Virus record (IMG/VR): IMGVR_UViG_3300042695_002264
Coordinates: 106,519-170,518 of that record
DNA: 64,000 nt
Reading direction: 5' to 3' (one strand)
Origin: a virus
The translations under genes were made by a program, and so were the position numbers. Below the pieces are notes generated by a model. That model did not search any database, was not told the origin of the DNA, and worked only from the letters and a program-made list of their open reading frames with translations. This document shows positions 19,880-26,478 of the stretch, piece by piece. Numbering within the stretch: position 1 is the first letter of the stretch; each line of letters begins with the position of its first letter.

Positions 19880-21436
19880 TTATGCTATAGTCGTTACATT
19901 ATAAGTTGCACTTCTGTCCATCGGACTTATAGATAAAGACTCATCTTGTTTTATTGCTGATGTTGAAATCCTCATATCCTCTGGAAACGAAACCAAATTT
20001 ACATTTTTTCCATATTTTCTATTTTTATTTATAGTTACTTCATAAAATGTTTTTTGATCATGCTGCTGCCTAACAATGCTATTATTTATATAATAATCAG
20101 TATAAATATTTACAGGATATTTTTCAGAAATTGACTCCTTCTCCTCTTCTATTCCGTTTGGATTATTATTTATAGTCTTGTTTGTATAAGATACGCTATA
20201 CTGAACTGTTCCATTGTACTTGCTAGAAGTAAATGTTTCATTGCTTTTATTTAATATGCCGCTAGAACTACAGCGGTTTGTATTTATTGATAAAAATCTA
20301 GAATATAAACTATTTATTTTTGACAATAATAATGATTCTTTTTGATTGTAGCCATAAATAGCATTATTATATTTTCTATCTGTATTTGGCACGCCATCAC
20401 CTTGAATAGACAGATTAGCTGTGCAGTTAATTAGGTAAGTATCGCCAAGATCGACAGATGTTTCAATAGACCAATCATACCTATTCTCTATAAATGGATT
20501 ATCCGTATAGACTGTTTCTAATTCAATTGTACCATTAAATCTATCTACGTTATATCCTTGGGTTATTGGAAAATTATTAAGAGATCCAGTCACATAATTA
20601 ACATAAAAATTCTGTGATCTTTGATAACAGTTAGGCTTTAATTCTGCTAGTTTATTTTTAACGGTTGTAAATTTAGGATCTTGATTGGCCTGTATCTGAA
20701 CAGATTCAGTAACTTCAGTAATTCCATTTTCATCTCTACGAAGTGAATATGAAAAATCAGCGTTTGATGAATCTCCGCTTATGTTTTTATCTAACCTTTC
20801 TGTAAAAGAAAAAATTTTATTTATTACATCAAAGCTTTCTTCGTAATATTTTTTTCCAGATAAAAAATTAGCATTCCCACTTATAAGATTAAATGGCACT
20901 TCTTTTCCAATAATTCCAGACGCAATATTTTTTGCTAATAAATCCGCGCTACCATACGCAAGCGCATTTTCAAAACTAAAACTCACACTATGTTCATAGC
21001 TATAATTATTGCTTGAATCAAGATCTAAAGAAAAATTTTCCGAAAAATCATTCATTAAATGAAGGGATAATCCTGTAAAATTTTGGAGACCAGTAAAATA
21101 ATTACCAGTCATATTATATAAATTACCCGTAGATAAAATTAAAATATCAGCCGTATATTCACCACGCCTTACCCAGTTTCCTTCATCTACATTAATATTT
21201 CTTATATATCCAGATCCAAAATTTATCCCATTTAAAACAATATCATCGCTAACTTTTGCCAAATTTATAAGGGCATATATTCCACTTGATACCCCACTTA
21301 CACCACTTGTGTTGTAAAAATCTGCAATTGTTCCACGTACAGTAAGATTTTTTTCAATACTATAAACAAAATTATCTCCTAAAAATTTAGGAGAATGTGA
21401 GTATGATAGTAATGCTGCATTATTAAAAGTTATCAT
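19880..21436 (-). CDS. Distal tail-like protein immediately after tape measure
   Basis: Synteny; same repeated architecture as 18346-19878. Confidence 0.5.
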   Translation of the reverse strand: MITFNNAALLSYSHSPKFLGDNFVYSIEKNLTVRGTIADFYNTSGVSGVSSGIYALINLAKVSDDIVLNGINFGSGYIRNINVDEGNWVRRGEYTADILILSTGNLYNMTGNYFTGLQNFTGLSLHLMNDFSENFSLDLDSSNNYSYEHSVSFSFENALAYGSADLLAKNIASGIIGKEVPFNLISGNANFLSGKKYYEESFDVINKIFSFTERLDKNISGDSSNADFSYSLRRDENGITEVTESVQIQANQDPKFTTVKNKLAELKPNCYQRSQNFYVNYVTGSLNNFPITQGYNVDRFNGTIELETVYTDNPFIENRYDWSIETSVDLGDTYLINCTANLSIQGDGVPNTDRKYNNAIYGYNQKESLLLSKINSLYSRFLSINTNRCSSSGILNKSNETFTSSKYNGTVQYSVSYTNKTINNNPNGIEEEKESISEKYPVNIYTDYYINNSIVRQQHDQKTFYEVTINKNRKYGKNVNLVSFPEDMRISTSAIKQDESLSISPMDRSATYNVTTIA

Positions 21437-24400
21437 TACTTAAGATTATTTTGCGCTTTTAATTGTTGCATTTTCGCACTGAATTCATCTAATATTCTTT
21501 GTTTTTCTGCTGTTAACTTAAGATCTAAATCCTCTCGTGTTAAACCGCCCAAAGTAAAAGATACTGGGCCAGGATTTATATTTATAGACGGGACAACTGA
21601 AGGGGAATCAGTCAAGCTTATTGGTTTTTCAAAATTAGATGGCTGCGGCTTATCTTTGCCAGACTTTTCTGCAGTAGTTGTGAAATATTCCAACATAGCT
21701 TGTACTGAACTTTCTATTAATTTGAAATTTGCAGCAGCTTGTTCTGCTGAAGTTGTAAGATCAAAAGCCATAGCGTTAACAATTGTTTCATATGCCTTAA
21801 AAGCTTCGCTTCGATCAGCAAATCCGCCAAGTTGCTGAAGTGCCTTTATAGCAGCCTCAACCTCTTTCGACGAACCTTCAAACTTGCCACCTTCCGGTAA
21901 AAATCTATTTTTTAAATAATCAATACCTAATTTGCTTGTGCCAGTAGCCTCCCCAACAGCCTGTTGGTTTAACATTCTTGCCCTGTTTTGATAATCTACT
22001 GGAAGCCCAAGATCAAAAGCCCTTTGCGCTGCGTTATTACCAGCCTGCCTCCTCACATTCATTACATCTGATCCAAATCTTGTAAATATCTCTTCTGGAG
22101 TGGCGCCCAAAGACAAAGCCTCTTTTATTCTTTCTTGTGATCTTCTGGCAACAAACTCATTTTGTCCAATTTCACCACCAAAAAAATCACTCTCTAATTG
22201 GCTAATCGCAGATTTGTTTTTATTATAGCTTAATAAGCTATCTATATCTTGAGACAGTTGCTGCGCTATTTTTTTAGAAGCATCCTTTATTGCTCCAGCC
22301 GCAAGGCTTCTAGTTTTTTCTGCTTGGCCTTTGATATTTATACCAACTTCATCGAAAACTTCTCCATATAATTCTGATAAAACCTTTTTAAAACCAGAAG
22401 ATTCTTCTATAGCTCTTGGGTCAATGTTTAATGTATCACTTATTAATTTTCCAAAATCTTTTTGTATTTGTTCTTTTCCGCCCAATTCTTTTAATCTAGT
22501 TTCTAAATCTGAATCTGTTAAGCCTTGAGTTATACCTGCATTTATTTGTTTTTTAAAAGCATCTCTAATATCTTTTGTCATTTCTCCAGAATATGTTTCT
22601 ATTGGTGGCTGCTTGCCTACCAGCATGCCTGGGGCATTTGGGCCAGAGCCAGATCTTCCAACAAACTCAAAAGCCCTTGCTATTATAGATCTTCTTTGTG
22701 TATTCAATAACTGCTCAACTGATACATCCGCTTGATTCCTGGCTGTTTGTTCTGCTTGTTTTTGTGTAATTTGACCAGAAACTTCCGTTAATCCTTGCAT
22801 TCCGCGCTCTTTAATTGCATTTGTAAATTTTTTAGCAGTTTCAGGATCAAAACTATTTAAATAATTTATATAATTTTGCTCTGCTTTTCTAAGCTCTGAC
22901 TGTGGAGCATTTTCTTCTAATAATCTAGTATATGTTTCGTAAGATGTTGCTAGCCCTTGAGTTTTTTCGTTAACCTTGGCCAATTCTTCGGTAGATTTTT
23001 CTGCTTTAGCCTGCAATTCTGGAAGATTTGTGTTTAATTGTTTTAATATATCTGTTAATCCTATTAGCCCGCCAGTAACCGCACCAAGTGCCGCGCCGAC
23101 TGCCGCTCCCTTTGGTCCAAATGCCATGCCAACCATTCCGCCAGTTCCAGCAAAAGATGCAATTTGGCCAGCGCCACTTACTGCAGATGCCCCAACCCTT
23201 CCGCCTTGTGTATTTTGCGGTATTGCGTTTGCAATTGTTTCTGCAATGATTGGCGCAGCAAATGCCGTTCCAATACCTGGTCTAAAGCCTTTTGCTGATG
23301 ATATTCCCCGTTGAAGAATGCCTGCACCTGACCTTCTAGCTGCACGTTGAGCTTGCGCCCTTTGCTCAATATCAAGCATGGCAGCATTATATCCAGACGA
23401 TCCTCTTTGTAGTGGGCCAGGCCCCATAGTTGACATTTTTTGAAGATTTGCTTTTTGTTGGGATATAGATTTCCTTTCAAGCTCAGCCCTTTGCTTATAC
23501 GTTTCCTTTAATTCATTTACATCTTTTTTTCCTAATTGAGAAATACTAGCAAACAATGCGATTTGCGCGGCAACTGCCCCAATAGATTTAGCAAAATCTG
23601 AAATACCGCCTTGGGCTTCACCTTCACTACCAACTGCAAAATTTGGAGTAAATCCGGTAGCATACATCCCCATACCTTTGCGCTCGCGCCCAATTGCATC
23701 TTTTAATCCATTAGGTTCGTCACGCGTGTTTGTTACTGCAACTGGATTTCCACTCTTATCAAAGTGCGCGCGAATTTGTGAAACTGGAACTCCACGATTT
23801 GTAGATGAAAAATTTGGTATAAAACCAGAAGCTTTTGATCTTGATAATTGTCCAGGTTTAATTTTTAATTTATTACTGATAAAAGCTTTTCTAGCAACAT
23901 CATTTATTAAATTTTGTTGATTCCCAATTTTTGCTTCGTAGTCTCCAGGAATATTATTAAATAATTTTCTTAATTTGTCATTTGGGTTAACAAAGTCAAT
24001 AATAGCACTTGATCCACCAGACCTTCCGGCCTGTGTAACAGCAGAATCTGTAGCCTGCGTCACGGCACTTTCAAATATATTACCAGCAATACTTCTAAAA
24101 GATCCATAATTTGCAAGCTGTTGTACTGATTTTATTCTAGCATTTGGAGAATAATTGCCGAAAATGCTTATAAATCGATTTGTAAAATCAATAACTTGAT
24201 CTCCTAATAATTTTTCTAACTGAGCATCTTCTGGTTTAACTTTGGCATTGTAACCACTTGATTTAAATCCTACTTTATAAGTTTTTCCATTTGGTGTTTT
24301 TTTATCTGTAATAAGGCCCTTTTGATCTGTATTGAAAAATCCTGTCTCATCTTTTATCCCAGCTTTTTCGCCATATATTAAACTTAAAGTACTAGTTTTG

Positions 24401-26478
24401 CCAAGATCAATAGTACTAGATGAACTTTTTCCCAGAGATGGTTTTTTTGCTGTGCCTAGTCTAGAATTAACAGCTTCAGCCGTAAATCTTTGACTTAATT
24501 GTGATCTAGAATATTGATTGCTTTGTATTGCCTCTTCTAATGAAATATTTGGTGGCAATTTTGTTTTTGCAAAATTTGGAATAAAACCAGAAGATGAAAT
24601 TTTACGAGCACCACTTGGCAACCCATACTTTGCTTTCATATCTTTGTTAAAGATAGCAGTTCCATCCCCACCAGCAAAATTTGGCACAACCCACTCTCCG
24701 GTATGTGCAGTTATTTTACCTTTCTTGCCTCCACCAAATGCAAAATTCGGAATAGTAACGGGCCTATCAGTTGCCGGATTTGCGCCACCAACTCTTGCAT
24801 TAATATTCGCTTGCTCAATTGATTCTGGTAAATATCCAGCAGCAGCAGTTTTTGTCTTTGTAGCTACAAACTGCCTTCCTCCTATTGTTTGTACCCCAAC
24901 AGATCCAGCAAGTGATTTAGATATCGATGCAGCAACAGAATTTTGCCTTTGCAAAGCTGCTGTCTGTTGTTGTATAACTGCCAAATATTCTTTGGCCGCA
25001 GTTGAAACAGAAACCTGCCCCTTTAAAATAGAATTATACAAACCGCTATTGTTTTGTAAAAATTTTGCTATATTTTGCTGAACCACCACCTGCTCTTTTC
25101 CTGCCTGATTTGTTCCCAAAATACTTTTAAAAGCCTCTGCTCCATACTTTGTAAACTCAGCTAATAACTTAACGATTATTGCCGTTGCTAAAGCGAGCCC
25201 AGGCCCAGCAATAAATTTACCAAGACCATCAATTACCCCTCTACCAATCTGACCACCAACGCTTTGCGAATCTGCATTTCCCACAGACTCTGTTAATAAA
25301 TTTGTTAAGTTTAAAACATTTCTAGCAGCATCTCCAAATAACCCCTCTCCAAGAGTTCCAGCAACTTTTTGAACATTTGCCAATGTTTTTGTTCCCAACG
25401 CAGATAACGTTTGATTTAACTGTTCATTTCTTTGAATGGCCTGATCGGTACTCGATAATGATGTTTTAAGCGCACGGTCGTAAATTGAATACTCCTTACC
25501 TAAATCACCTAAAGCAGCTTTTAAGATGTTAATCTGGAAAACGCCGCCAACCTGCTCTGCTACATAATTTTTTTGAGTAGCTCCAAGCGTATCATAAACT
25601 AATGCAAGCTCTTTTAAAAGTTGAATTTGTGTTTTTACCTGACCGCTTTCATCAGTTGCGCTAATTCCAAGACCGCCCAAAACCTCTTGAACTTTTTCTC
25701 GACCAAGTCTTGTAAAAATTGTTTTCAGTGAGTTTCCTATAACCGCACCTCCACGAGCAGTAATTTGCTGCGCAGTTGTCACTAAAGCTATCAATTCGTC
25801 AAAAGAAATTCCAGCATCGTCAGCAGAAGATCCAACACGACTCAATGCATTAGCCAAATCTGCAGAGCTAACAGCAAATGCGGCATCAACATTAGCCAGC
25901 TTATTTACAATTTCTGTCGCTTCCAATGTCGCACTCTGAAAAGAGTTCATTGTAGCAGTAAGAGCCGCAACACTTGCTGCAGCATCCAGACCACTTAAAC
26001 GAGTCAAGATTAGCGCTGCCTCAGTACGTTTTAATGTTTCTTCTACCCCAAGGCCCTGACGAGACAACTCTGTTGCTGCTTCTGCAACAACATCAAATGC
26101 TTGCGCTGTATTTCCAGCAATATCAAATAATGAGCTTCCAAAAGCCGCAAGATTTTTTTCTGACAAATTTAATATAACATTTATGTCTTGTAATTTTTTC
26201 TCTGTATTTACAAAACTCTGAAATAAAGACACTACTGCATTTTGTAATGCAAAAATACTTCCAGCAGCTGCGCCGAATGCAATAACACGAGCATTAGCAG
26301 CAGCCAAAGACTTATCAATTTCAGTTATTTGGCCGCTTAATTTTCCTAATGGTTGAGCGGCCCCCCTACCACCAGCCTGCACATCAATAACTAGTGGCTG
26401 CTTAGCAACTTGGTTTATCTGTTGCCTAAGCTTCGCTGTATTACCGCTAACATCTACGCTAATATTTGGGTTTGCCAT
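21436..26478 (-). CDS. Tail tape measure protein (TP901-type core) with internal cargo-like domains
   Basis: 1680 aa, Ala/Gly-rich; ELSRQGL...VDAAFAVSSADLANALSRVGSSA..GISFDEL..GNSLKTIFTRL core; hydrophobic glycine-zipper segments. Confidence 0.92.
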   Translation of the reverse strand: MANPNISVDVSGNTAKLRQQINQVAKQPLVIDVQAGGRGAAQPLGKLSGQITEIDKSLAAANARVIAFGAAAGSIFALQNAVVSLFQSFVNTEKKLQDINVILNLSEKNLAAFGSSLFDIAGNTAQAFDVVAEAATELSRQGLGVEETLKRTEAALILTRLSGLDAAASVAALTATMNSFQSATLEATEIVNKLANVDAAFAVSSADLANALSRVGSSADDAGISFDELIALVTTAQQITARGGAVIGNSLKTIFTRLGREKVQEVLGGLGISATDESGQVKTQIQLLKELALVYDTLGATQKNYVAEQVGGVFQINILKAALGDLGKEYSIYDRALKTSLSSTDQAIQRNEQLNQTLSALGTKTLANVQKVAGTLGEGLFGDAARNVLNLTNLLTESVGNADSQSVGGQIGRGVIDGLGKFIAGPGLALATAIIVKLLAEFTKYGAEAFKSILGTNQAGKEQVVVQQNIAKFLQNNSGLYNSILKGQVSVSTAAKEYLAVIQQQTAALQRQNSVAASISKSLAGSVGVQTIGGRQFVATKTKTAAAGYLPESIEQANINARVGGANPATDRPVTIPNFAFGGGKKGKITAHTGEWVVPNFAGGDGTAIFNKDMKAKYGLPSGARKISSSGFIPNFAKTKLPPNISLEEAIQSNQYSRSQLSQRFTAEAVNSRLGTAKKPSLGKSSSSTIDLGKTSTLSLIYGEKAGIKDETGFFNTDQKGLITDKKTPNGKTYKVGFKSSGYNAKVKPEDAQLEKLLGDQVIDFTNRFISIFGNYSPNARIKSVQQLANYGSFRSIAGNIFESAVTQATDSAVTQAGRSGGSSAIIDFVNPNDKLRKLFNNIPGDYEAKIGNQQNLINDVARKAFISNKLKIKPGQLSRSKASGFIPNFSSTNRGVPVSQIRAHFDKSGNPVAVTNTRDEPNGLKDAIGRERKGMGMYATGFTPNFAVGSEGEAQGGISDFAKSIGAVAAQIALFASISQLGKKDVNELKETYKQRAELERKSISQQKANLQKMSTMGPGPLQRGSSGYNAAMLDIEQRAQAQRAARRSGAGILQRGISSAKGFRPGIGTAFAAPIIAETIANAIPQNTQGGRVGASAVSGAGQIASFAGTGGMVGMAFGPKGAAVGAALGAVTGGLIGLTDILKQLNTNLPELQAKAEKSTEELAKVNEKTQGLATSYETYTRLLEENAPQSELRKAEQNYINYLNSFDPETAKKFTNAIKERGMQGLTEVSGQITQKQAEQTARNQADVSVEQLLNTQRRSIIARAFEFVGRSGSGPNAPGMLVGKQPPIETYSGEMTKDIRDAFKKQINAGITQGLTDSDLETRLKELGGKEQIQKDFGKLISDTLNIDPRAIEESSGFKKVLSELYGEVFDEVGINIKGQAEKTRSLAAGAIKDASKKIAQQLSQDIDSLLSYNKNKSAISQLESDFFGGEIGQNEFVARRSQERIKEALSLGATPEEIFTRFGSDVMNVRRQAGNNAAQRAFDLGLPVDYQNRARMLNQQAVGEATGTSKLGIDYLKNRFLPEGGKFEGSSKEVEAAIKALQQLGGFADRSEAFKAYETIVNAMAFDLTTSAEQAAANFKLIESSVQAMLEYFTTTAEKSGKDKPQPSNFEKPISLTDSPSVVPSININPGPVSFTLGGLTREDLDLKLTAEKQRILDEFSAKMQQLKAQNNLK

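What the first reader, a model, noticed from the sequence alone, without database searches (positions are those of the whole stretch)
23635..24846. Tape measure protein divided by repeated [ST]GF[IT]PNF motifs: a polyprotein with cargo slots
Seen: SGFIPNFA (aa 630, nt 24568-24591), SGFIPNFS (aa 884, 23806-23829) and TGFTPNFA (aa 941, 23635-23658), plus partial copies AGYLPE, TIPNFA (24739) and GEWVVPNFA (24673). They bound compositionally distinct, globular-looking segments between the helical N-terminal core and the membrane-like C-terminal part. Known: tape measure proteins are ejected into the host and several are proteolytically processed. Inference: the motif is a cleavage or recognition signal, or a recombination anchor for swapping cargo domains, making the tail lumen a delivery route for effectors.
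Basis: partly seen in the sequence, partly recalled or inferred. Interest (0 to 1): 0.8.

Follow-up and report, generated by a model that had tools for sequence, protein, structure and literature searches.

The report
Conserved junction peptide fencing tape-measure modules
The tail "ruler" protein of this uncultured 170-kb phage carries a short peptide (G-F/Y-I/V-P-N-F) at each edge of its inserted modules; about a thousand related rulers share it, and it marks where related phages have swapped modules, but whether the protein is cut there or delivers enzymes is untested.

Summary
The 1680-aa tape measure protein (TMP, window 21436-26478, minus strand) has five PNF sites where 0.12 are expected. 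Three are full [ST]GF[IT]PNF copies at the stated coordinates.

The motif (consensus A-[AS]-x-G-[FY]-[IV]-P-N-F-A) forms both ends of a ~65-aa junction module. Two such modules (aa 573-637 and 884-948) bracket a 246-aa domain D.

A profile of the module finds 1237 protein clusters, mostly TMPs of 1400-4800 aa. They carry 1-12 strict motif copies, and the first lies at aa ~545-650 in full-length members.

A syntenic relative is 90-91% identical in DNA for 11 kb on each side. It differs only in the cassette between motifs 630 and 884: one module here, three there. Across 259 TMPs, 69% of ends of high-identity blocks lie within 10 aa of a motif (null 5-16%).

Motif codons vary, so the constraint acts on the protein. 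D has an invariant E..D..[DE]xK set but no fold or Pfam match. One motif-fenced module in relatives is a GNAT acetyltransferase.

Cleavage and effector delivery remain untested, and tandem motifs 17-22 aa apart argue against simple cleavage sites. The scan has noted this motif, and analogous junction modules, on other DNA. No paper or cultured phage was found.

The parts
21436..26478 (-). Tape measure protein gene, 1680 aa (P0001)
   Evidence: ORF; PF10145 E 1e-25; TIGR01760 E 5e-29; 11 PHROG TMP families
25267..26241 (-). TP901-type TMP core (aa 80-404). It belongs to the conserved N-terminal flank (aa 1-~560)
   Evidence: TIGR01760 match at aa 80-404. The N-terminal 640 aa are 84-95% identical in relatives whose cassettes differ
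24820..24843 (-). Decayed motif copy AAGYLPES (aa 546-553)
   Evidence: Aligns with AGGYIPNF / AAGYIPNFA of relatives
24568..24762 (-). Junction module J1 (aa 573-637). It starts with TIPNFA, contains VVPNFA and ends with SGFIPNFA
   Evidence: Alignment A5: 50 sequences, 78% mean column identity, 25 invariant columns. Aligns end to end with the J2-type profile (hhalign 99.6%; the profiles are not independent). Beta strands in the model
24568..24591 (-). Full motif SGFIPNFA (aa 630-637); left edge of the exchanged cassette
   Evidence: Identity with L009 stops at the last base of the motif. pLDDT below 50
23830..24567 (-). Domain D (aa 638-883): a family-wide 246-aa domain of unknown fold with invariant G799, E/D803, D828, D/E848 and K850
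   Evidence: Model pLDDT 89, pTM 0.73. No fold match. No Pfam match. Residue conservation. Found in 248 of 259 relatives
23806..23829 (-). Full motif SGFIPNFS (aa 884-891); right edge of the exchanged cassette
   Evidence: Identity with L009 resumes at window 23802, one codon after the window's motif and five codons after L009's
23635..23829 (-). Junction module J2 (aa 884-948) with the conserved core AVTNTRDEPNG. It ends with TGFTPNFA (nt 23635-23658)
   Evidence: Alignment A3. A profile of it finds 1237 protein clusters at E<=1e-3
21439..23634 (-). C-terminal part (aa 949-1680): glycine-rich hydrophobic stretches, then helical region. Conserved flank
   Evidence: 74-86% identical to P0006 and P0007 from aa 879 onward. 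Only weak Gly-zipper and Rz-like hits

Best explanation
The [AS]xG[FY][IV]PNF[A] peptide is the edge element of a ~65-85-aa junction module (J). In richer relatives it is also the stand-alone linker between modules. It belongs to a large clade of TP901-type tape measure proteins known only from uncultured phages.

This phage has the minimal layout: TMP core, then J1, then domain D, then J2, then a hydrophobic and helical C-terminal part.

Shown: the peptide is conserved at the protein level whatever the codons, and it occurs only in the TMP. In the monomer model it lies in low-confidence linkers. It marks the points where whole modules have been replaced, added or lost between closely related phages.

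Inferred: the motif most likely works as an uncleaved structural joint. It could be a strand that docks onto the junction module, onto the other chains of the TMP trimer, or onto the tail chaperone or tube. Such a joint would let folded modules be spliced into the extended ruler without breaking tail assembly. Within a genome the copies share about 20 nearly identical bases, so they also serve as recombination points, which makes the array a cassette system.

Domain D carries an invariant E..D..[DE]xK set and is probably an enzyme or metal-binding module that travels with the TMP.
For: - Chance is excluded and the coordinates are correct.
- Family-wide conservation: 120 of 120 listed homologues carry PNF/PEF sites. 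Of 139 further proteins added by the profile search, 138 carry 1-12 strict copies; the first copy lies at aa ~545-650 in full-length members. The consensus comes from 1261 sites.
- The PNF columns are invariant in a 46-sequence alignment at 30-50% identity.
- The constraint is on the protein: codons vary at every synonymous position.
- The motif occurs only in the TMP.
- Full copies have pLDDT below 50; partial copies are strands of a small beta module.
- J1 and J2 are one module type.
- Cassette exchange: the window and L009 are 90.5% and 91.1% identical in DNA over 11.9 and 11.2 kb. Only window 23803-24568 is replaced, by 1720 nt. The left junction is at the last base of motif 630-637. The right junction is one codon after the window's motif 884-891 and five codons after L009's.
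- Across the family, 69% of 157 internal ends of blocks at >=80% identity lie within 10 aa of a motif. Randomised positions give 5% over whole proteins and 16% within the array.
- 21 of 25 lineages have at least one junction at a motif.
- Tandem motifs every 17-22 aa (P0146, and within J1) suit a structural or binding repeat.
Against: - No experiment or structure shows what the motif binds, and only monomer models could be made.
- Junctions at domain edges would also arise from random recombination followed by selection. The clustering of breakpoints therefore does not prove that the motif DNA promotes recombination.
- Alignments run through any conserved motif, which biases block ends toward it.
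- A strictly conserved short peptide in disordered linkers at domain edges is also what a protease or self-cleavage site looks like.
- The PG-hydrolase domains of relatives sit in the TMP without this motif, so it is not a general requirement for inserting a domain.
Confidence: 0.55

Rival explanations
1. Polyprotein reading. The motif is a proteolytic or self-cleavage site. The TMP is cut there during tail maturation or after ejection, which frees D and, in relatives, GNAT and other modules as effectors in the host.
For: - Full copies lie in low-confidence linkers exactly at module edges.
- G, P, N and F are kept near-invariantly.
- At least one fenced module is an enzyme: GNAT, PF00583 at 24-34 bits against a cut-off of 20.7.
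- D has an invariant catalytic-looking residue set.
- From my own knowledge: TMPs of lambda, T5 and SPP1 are processed, and Asn-dependent self-cleavage is known in nodavirus and tetravirus capsids and in FlhB/YscU. This is an analogy only.
Against: - No other protein in the genome carries the motif, so the capsid maturation protease is not implied.
- Motif copies 22 aa apart inside the folded J1, and nine tandem copies 17-21 aa apart in P0146, would give useless 20-aa peptides.
- No relative encodes the modules as separate genes. All short hits are contig-end or frameshifted fragments.
- No protease-like domain was detected in the TMP.
Confidence: 0.2
2. The motif is only a DNA-level recombination anchor, a conserved linker sequence with no role in the protein.
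For: The exchange junction lies at the motif in the window/L009 pair. Within a genome the copies share about 17-20 identical bases.
Against: Across relatives all synonymous codons are used (GGN, CCN, ATH, AAY, TTY) while the amino acids stay fixed. The motif persists between TMPs that are only 30% identical, where DNA homology has been lost.
Confidence: 0.05
3. Domain D is a PD-(D/E)xK nuclease carried in the tail and injected ahead of the DNA. Other first readers of this stretch proposed this.
For: - In 87 D domains with 16% mean column identity, G799, E/D803, D828, D/E848 and K850 are 100% conserved.
- Their predicted placement matches the nuclease core order: helix, short strand, strand, then a following helix.
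- The only structural row that covers the C-terminal half of D over about 100 residues is the restriction enzyme Cfr10I, found in two separate searches.
Against: - The Cfr10I rows are at noise level: Z 3.0 and 2.6, rmsd 6.4 and 5.0 A.
- Nothing was found in Foldseek PDB or BFVD at E<0.1, and ESM Atlas gave TM<=0.35.
- There is no Pfam or PDB sequence match, even when all 87 members are scanned.
- The usual first and fourth strands are not in the canonical order.
Confidence: 0.3

Closest known systems
TP901-1-family tape measure proteins (PF10145 / TIGR01760)
   Same: The N-terminal core matches both models above their cut-offs. The gene lies in a tail module. The protein is long, with glycine-rich hydrophobic stretches and a helical C-terminal part.
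   Different: Neither model covers aa 545-960. No cultured phage in the 50,697-record collection matches that stretch.
TMPs with embedded enzyme domains: mycobacteriophage TM4 Rpf-like motif, T5 pb2 peptidase, SPbeta YomI lysins (from my own knowledge; SPbeta appears)
   Same: Folded modules are inserted in the ruler and presumably leave through the tail. Relatives of this TMP also carry VanY, glucosaminidase, lysozyme or SLT domains.
   Different: Those lysin domains are not fenced by a conserved peptide. Here a dedicated junction module and motif delimit an array of mostly unknown modules in mid-protein.
Recombination between conserved motifs in T-even tail-fibre adhesin genes (the 'His boxes'; Tetart, Desplats and Krisch 1998, recalled from memory) and the linker-sequence version of the modular theory of phage evolution
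   Same: Short conserved motifs flank variable domains, and exchange junctions fall at those motifs.
   Different: A different protein (a ruler, not a fibre) and a different motif. The protein-level role here is unknown.
Viral polyproteins and phage head proteins cut at short consensus sites, such as T4 and phiKZ prohead protease sites (from my own knowledge)
   Same: A short conserved peptide sits at every domain boundary.
   Different: No protease is identified, no other protein of the genome carries the motif, tandem copies lie 17-22 aa apart, and cleavage is untested.
Junction or connector modules in other giant TMPs noted earlier in this scan (glycine-flanked connectors linked there to the lambda gpH C-terminal region)
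   Same: The same logic applies: beads on a string, a conserved connector, and cassette swapping at the connector.
   Different: The sequence differs. Comparing this module with lambda gpH gave nothing: hhalign probability 0.2, and PF09718 and TIGR01541 found no candidates in the genome.

Membership tests
TP901-family tape measure protein (PF10145 / TIGR01760) | Match to the family core model above the curated cut-off | tested here: met
   PF10145: 91.3 bits against 33.2. TIGR01760: 101.5 bits against 28.8.
TP901-family tape measure protein (PF10145 / TIGR01760) | Position in a tail gene module and length suited to a ruler | tested here: inconclusive
   1680 aa, in a block of same-strand large ORFs that is syntenic in L009. 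None of the ten neighbours scanned in each of the two searches has a Pfam or PHROG match, so the module is inferred from order only.
PD-(D/E)xK nuclease superfamily (domain D) | Conserved acidic/acidic/Lys signature: E on a helix, D on a strand, (D/E)xK on the next strand | tested here: met
   E/D803, D828, D/E848 and K850 are 100% conserved in 87 sequences. Their secondary-structure placement fits.
PD-(D/E)xK nuclease superfamily (domain D) | Restriction-endonuclease-like alpha/beta fold | tested here: inconclusive
   Best rows overall have Z 3.5. Cfr10I scores only Z 2.6-3.0. Foldseek, BFVD and Atlas found nothing.
PD-(D/E)xK nuclease superfamily (domain D) | Sequence match to any catalogued nuclease family | tested here: not met
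   No Pfam family for P0001:637-890 at E<=1. No nuclease family among 87 members at E<=0.1 except one chance-level Nuc_N row at E 0.09. No PDB sequence match.
Lambda gpH C-terminal module (PF09718 / TIGR01541) | Detectable homology of the junction module to the lambda-type module | tested here: not met
   hhalign of A3 and A5 against lambda gpH gives probability 0.2. The family searches of the genome found no candidate. No Pfam hit for aa 540-640 or 885-960.
Proteolytically processed polyprotein | Cleavage at the repeated motif | not testable with these tools
   This needs virion or infection proteomics. The indirect search for natural split genes found only fragments.
GNAT acetyltransferase (module of relatives, not of this TMP) | Match to PF00583 above the cut-off, in a motif-bounded segment | tested here: met
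   P0156:1118-1292 scores 33.9 bits, P0165 25.5 and P0171 24.0, against a cut-off of 20.7. The cluster has 10 members of ~175 aa lying between two motifs.

The most novel reading that the evidence does not exclude
The motif is a processing signal, either self-cleavage at the invariant Asn or cutting by an unknown protease. It would release a string of ready-made enzymes (the D domain, GNAT and dozens of unknown modules) from the tape measure once it has been ejected into the host. That would make these siphophage-type tails a polymorphic effector-injection system whose cassettes are shuffled at the motif.
Probability: 0.15. Interest if true: 0.85.

Novelty: new variant of a known kind. Interest (0 to 1): 0.6.

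Why it matters
Tape measure proteins are usually treated as passive rulers that sometimes carry a lysin. Here a clade known only from metagenomes, with at least 1237 clusters at 50% identity, builds rulers of up to 4800 aa as beads on a string. The beads are joined by one strictly conserved peptide and a small junction module, and close relatives differ by whole cassettes exchanged at that peptide.

This gives a defined and testable handle on several questions:
- How folded domains are tolerated inside a tail tube.
- Whether tails deliver proteins other than lysins.
- How to engineer cargo into tape measures.

It also flags two uncatalogued and widespread protein modules: J, and D with its invariant E/D/[DE]xK set. 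Both deserve a family definition and a structure.

Tried and rejected
- **Chance or low complexity:** rejected.
- **General protease site shared with capsid proteins:** rejected. No other ORF in the 170-kb genome carries G[FY]xPNF.
- **Natural split genes at the motif:** P0253 and P0168 are cut by contig ends. P0261 and P0269 lie in frameshift-ridden assemblies in which the TMP is broken across frames. No evidence either way.
- **Homology of the junction module to the lambda gpH C-terminal region.** This was my own recollection of 'VHxGEfV', and earlier scan notes made the same link for other connectors. It is not supported. The by-eye resemblance of IPNFAFGG...AHTGEWVV to lambda's KFHFATGG...VHRGEFVF remains only a lead.
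- **Known fold for D:** Foldseek PDB and BFVD, VIA-align wide and second look, and ESM Atlas by shape and by features gave nothing above noise.
- **Pfam, NCBIfam or PHROG names for J, D and 89 other module types:** only GNAT, DUF7178 and PGDYG, one module type each.
- **Cultured relatives or literature:** no phage record matches aa 545-960. No paper contains GFIPNF, and 'tape measure' with PNF gives only unrelated hits.
- **Module arrays arising by recent tandem duplication:** only 16 of 586 segments have an intra-protein paralogue. Arrays are mostly built from different modules.
Full report
**Observation**

The finding lies in one ORF, window 21436-26478 on the minus strand, 1680 aa. Its N-terminal part is a TP901-type tape measure core: PF10145 at aa 124-312 (E 1e-25), TIGR01760 at aa 80-404 and eleven PHROG tape-measure families.

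- SGFIPNFA, aa 630-637, nt 24568-24591.
- SGFIPNFS, aa 884-891, nt 23806-23829.
- TGFTPNFA, aa 941-948, nt 23635-23658.
- The partial copies TIPNFA and EWVVPNFA.

From the protein's own composition, 0.12 PNF tripeptides and 0.0005 GF.PNF are expected; 5 and 3 are seen. 'AGYLPE' at aa 547-552 is a decayed copy, because relatives have AGGYIPNF or AAGYIPNFA at the aligned position.

In the window, in the whole 170,518-bp genome and in ten related loci, the motif occurs only in the tape-measure ORF. The genome is an IMG/VR virus record that CheckV rates as complete.

**What the pieces are**

A search with aa 540-1000 found 464 homologues, nearly all annotated as TP901 TMPs of 1000-2900 aa. Every one of the 120 listed carries PNF/PEF sites, nearly all of the form [AS]xG[FY][IV]PNF.

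Cutting these proteins at the motif and clustering the pieces gave two dominant kinds:
- A short module of about 57 aa. Both aa 602-636 and aa 891-947 of this protein fall in it.
- A domain of about 250 aa, called D here, which includes aa 637-890.

Profile comparison shows that aa 573-637 and aa 884-948 are the same junction module, J. It begins and ends with a PNF peptide (hhalign 99.6%; the two profiles share some sequences, so this is not an independent test). The 'VVPNF' copy is an internal strand of J1.

The layout of this protein is therefore core, J1, D, J2, then a glycine-rich hydrophobic and helical C-terminal part of 730 aa.

An AlphaFold model of aa 540-959, built from a 46-sequence alignment, has mean pLDDT 72. 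It places the three full motifs in stretches with pLDDT below 50 (local residues 91-99, 343-357 and 393-420). The two partial copies form strands of a small beta module.

**Size of the family**

A profile of J searched against 1.84 billion cluster representatives found 1237 proteins at E<=1e-3 and 879 at E<=1e-10. Almost all are 1400-4800 aa long, with up to 11 matched stretches each.

Among the 139 proteins this search added, 138 carry 1 to 12 strict motif copies. In full-length proteins the first copy lies at aa ~545-650. A tally of 1261 distinct sites gives the consensus A-[AS]-x-G-[FY]-[IV]-P-N-F-A.

No cultured phage among 50,697 records matches aa 545-960. No paper in the library contains the motif.

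The 586 inter-motif segments of 90 aa or more fall into 109 clusters. D accounts for 377 segments in 248 of 259 proteins. The remaining clusters are rare and variable.

Of 89 non-D module types, Pfam names only three:
- A GNAT acetyltransferase: 10 proteins, ~175 aa, PF00583 at 24-34 bits against a cut-off of 20.7.
- DUF7178.
- PGDYG.

Some relatives are extreme. P0153 has eleven different modules of 90-330 aa, each ending in GG[FL][IV]PNF. P0146 has nine tandem units of 17-21 aa, each ending in the motif. Recent internal duplication is rare, at 16 of 586 segments.

**Exchange at the motif**

P0007 is 95% identical to this TMP over aa 1-640 and 86% identical over aa 879-1680. Between those blocks it has three modules (212, 233 and 123 aa) where this phage has D alone.

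Its contig (L009) is syntenic with the window. The DNA comparison shows:
- Window 36453-24569 aligns at 90.5% identity over 11.9 kb.
- Window 23802-12583 aligns at 91.1% identity over 11.2 kb.
- Only window 23803-24568 is replaced, by 1720 nt.

Identity on the left ends at the last base of motif 630-637. On the right it resumes at window 23802, one codon after the window's motif 884-891 and five codons after L009's motif.

P0006, P0008, P0011, P0012 and P0014 show the same left break at aa 637-646. Their C-terminal identities range from 75% to 35%, so the N- and C-terminal flanks have different histories.

In an all-against-all comparison of the 259 TMPs, 157 de-duplicated internal ends of blocks with >=80% identity have a median distance of 4 aa from a PNF. 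69% lie within 10 aa. Random positions give 5% over the whole protein and 16% within the array, with a maximum of 23% in 200 randomisations.

A deliberately conservative collapse gives 25 independent lineages. 21 of them have at least one junction at a motif, and 37 of 63 junction classes lie within 10 aa.

Two caveats apply. Alignments extend through any conserved motif, which biases block ends toward it. Selection for intact domains would also place surviving junctions at domain edges.

**DNA or protein constraint**

Within one genome the copies share about 17-20 identical bases. That is enough for homology-assisted exchange.

Across relatives every synonymous codon is used (GGN, CCN, ATH, AAY, TTY) while the residues stay fixed. 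The motif also persists between TMPs only 30% identical. So the primary constraint is on the peptide. The role as a recombination junction is real but secondary.

**Domain D**

Modelled alone from 87 sequences, D is predicted confidently (pLDDT 89, pTM 0.73). It resembles nothing known:
- Foldseek PDB and BFVD: best E 0.1-0.3.
- VIA-align against 48,161 chains: best Z 3.5.
- ESM Atlas: TM <= 0.35.
- No Pfam or PDB sequence match, even when all 87 members are scanned.

Yet in that alignment, at 16% mean column identity, G799, E/D803, D828, D/E848 and K850 are 100% conserved. They lie on a helix, a short strand and a strand followed by a helix, which is the order of the PD-(D/E)xK signature.

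The restriction enzyme Cfr10I is the only structural row that spans this half of D. It appears in two searches, but only at noise level (Z 3.0 and 2.6).

I take D to be a probable enzyme or metal-binding module. Nuclease is the leading guess but unproven, at about 0.3.

**How the motif most likely works**

Shown: it is a module delimiter under protein-level selection, it is confined to the TMP, and it is the place where cassettes change.

Inferred: I favour an uncleaved structural joint, at 0.55. This would be a strand that docks on J, on the sister chains of the TMP trimer, or on the chaperone or tube, so that folded inserts do not interrupt assembly of the ruler. My reasons are:
- Copies occur 22 aa apart inside a folded module, and 17-21 aa apart in tandem arrays. 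Cutting there would make no sense.
- No other virion protein carries the motif.
- No split genes exist.

Cleavage (0.2) remains open. It is the reading that would matter most.

The 'tail lumen as effector route' idea has only indirect support: GNAT in ten relatives and D's residue set. The classical peptidoglycan hydrolases of relatives (VanY, glucosaminidase, lysozyme and SLT at aa ~1680-1990) sit in a different slot that the motif does not fence.

**Relation to earlier notes of this scan**

Other first readers noted the same motif, with the same nuclease idea, on this stretch and in two other genomes. Follow-up agents described analogous glycine-flanked connector modules in other giant TMPs and linked them to the lambda gpH C-terminal region.

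I tested that link for this module and found no support.

**Verdict**

The feature is real, widespread and uncatalogued. It is a new variant of the known theme of tape measures with embedded domains, and its modular exchange is clearly documented. The molecular role of the peptide is still unknown.

Noticed in passing
relatives P0039 aa 1680-1757, P0043 aa 1687-1760, P0048 aa 1862-1986, P0067 aa ~1735-1825: Four different peptidoglycan hydrolase families (VanY, glucosaminidase, phage lysozyme, SLT) occupy roughly the same late position in related TMPs. None is flanked by the PNF motif. This looks like a second, separate interchangeable slot. The window's own TMP has no such domain.
   Followed up: partly
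P0146 aa ~940-1130: Nine tandem units of 17-21 aa, each ending in A[KR]G[YH]xPNF[AV]. This is a pure array of the motif with no domains in between.
   Followed up: partly
P0153 (2307 aa, N-terminally incomplete): Eleven different modules of 90-330 aa are separated by GG[FL][IV]PNF. One contains LIEGNHRLAAINE, which by eye recalls ParB-like nuclease motifs. Another has PVDL...VEVK. Pfam finds nothing at E<=0.01.
   Followed up: no
window 12583-36453 and locus L009: The whole structural block is 90-91% identical in DNA to a 113.6-kb metagenome contig. Yet none of the large ORFs scanned around the TMP (ten in each of two searches) has any Pfam or PHROG match. This is a very divergent virion gene set.
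   Followed up: partly
window 22001-26000: G+C is 38.5% across the TMP gene against 30-32% in the flanking genes. This probably reflects its Gly/Ala-rich composition and was not examined further.
   Followed up: no
loci L011 and L012: In two ENA contigs the related TMP is broken into several ORFs by frameshifts, and D-domain pieces are readable in different frames. These look like assembly or sequencing errors rather than real split genes.
   Followed up: yes
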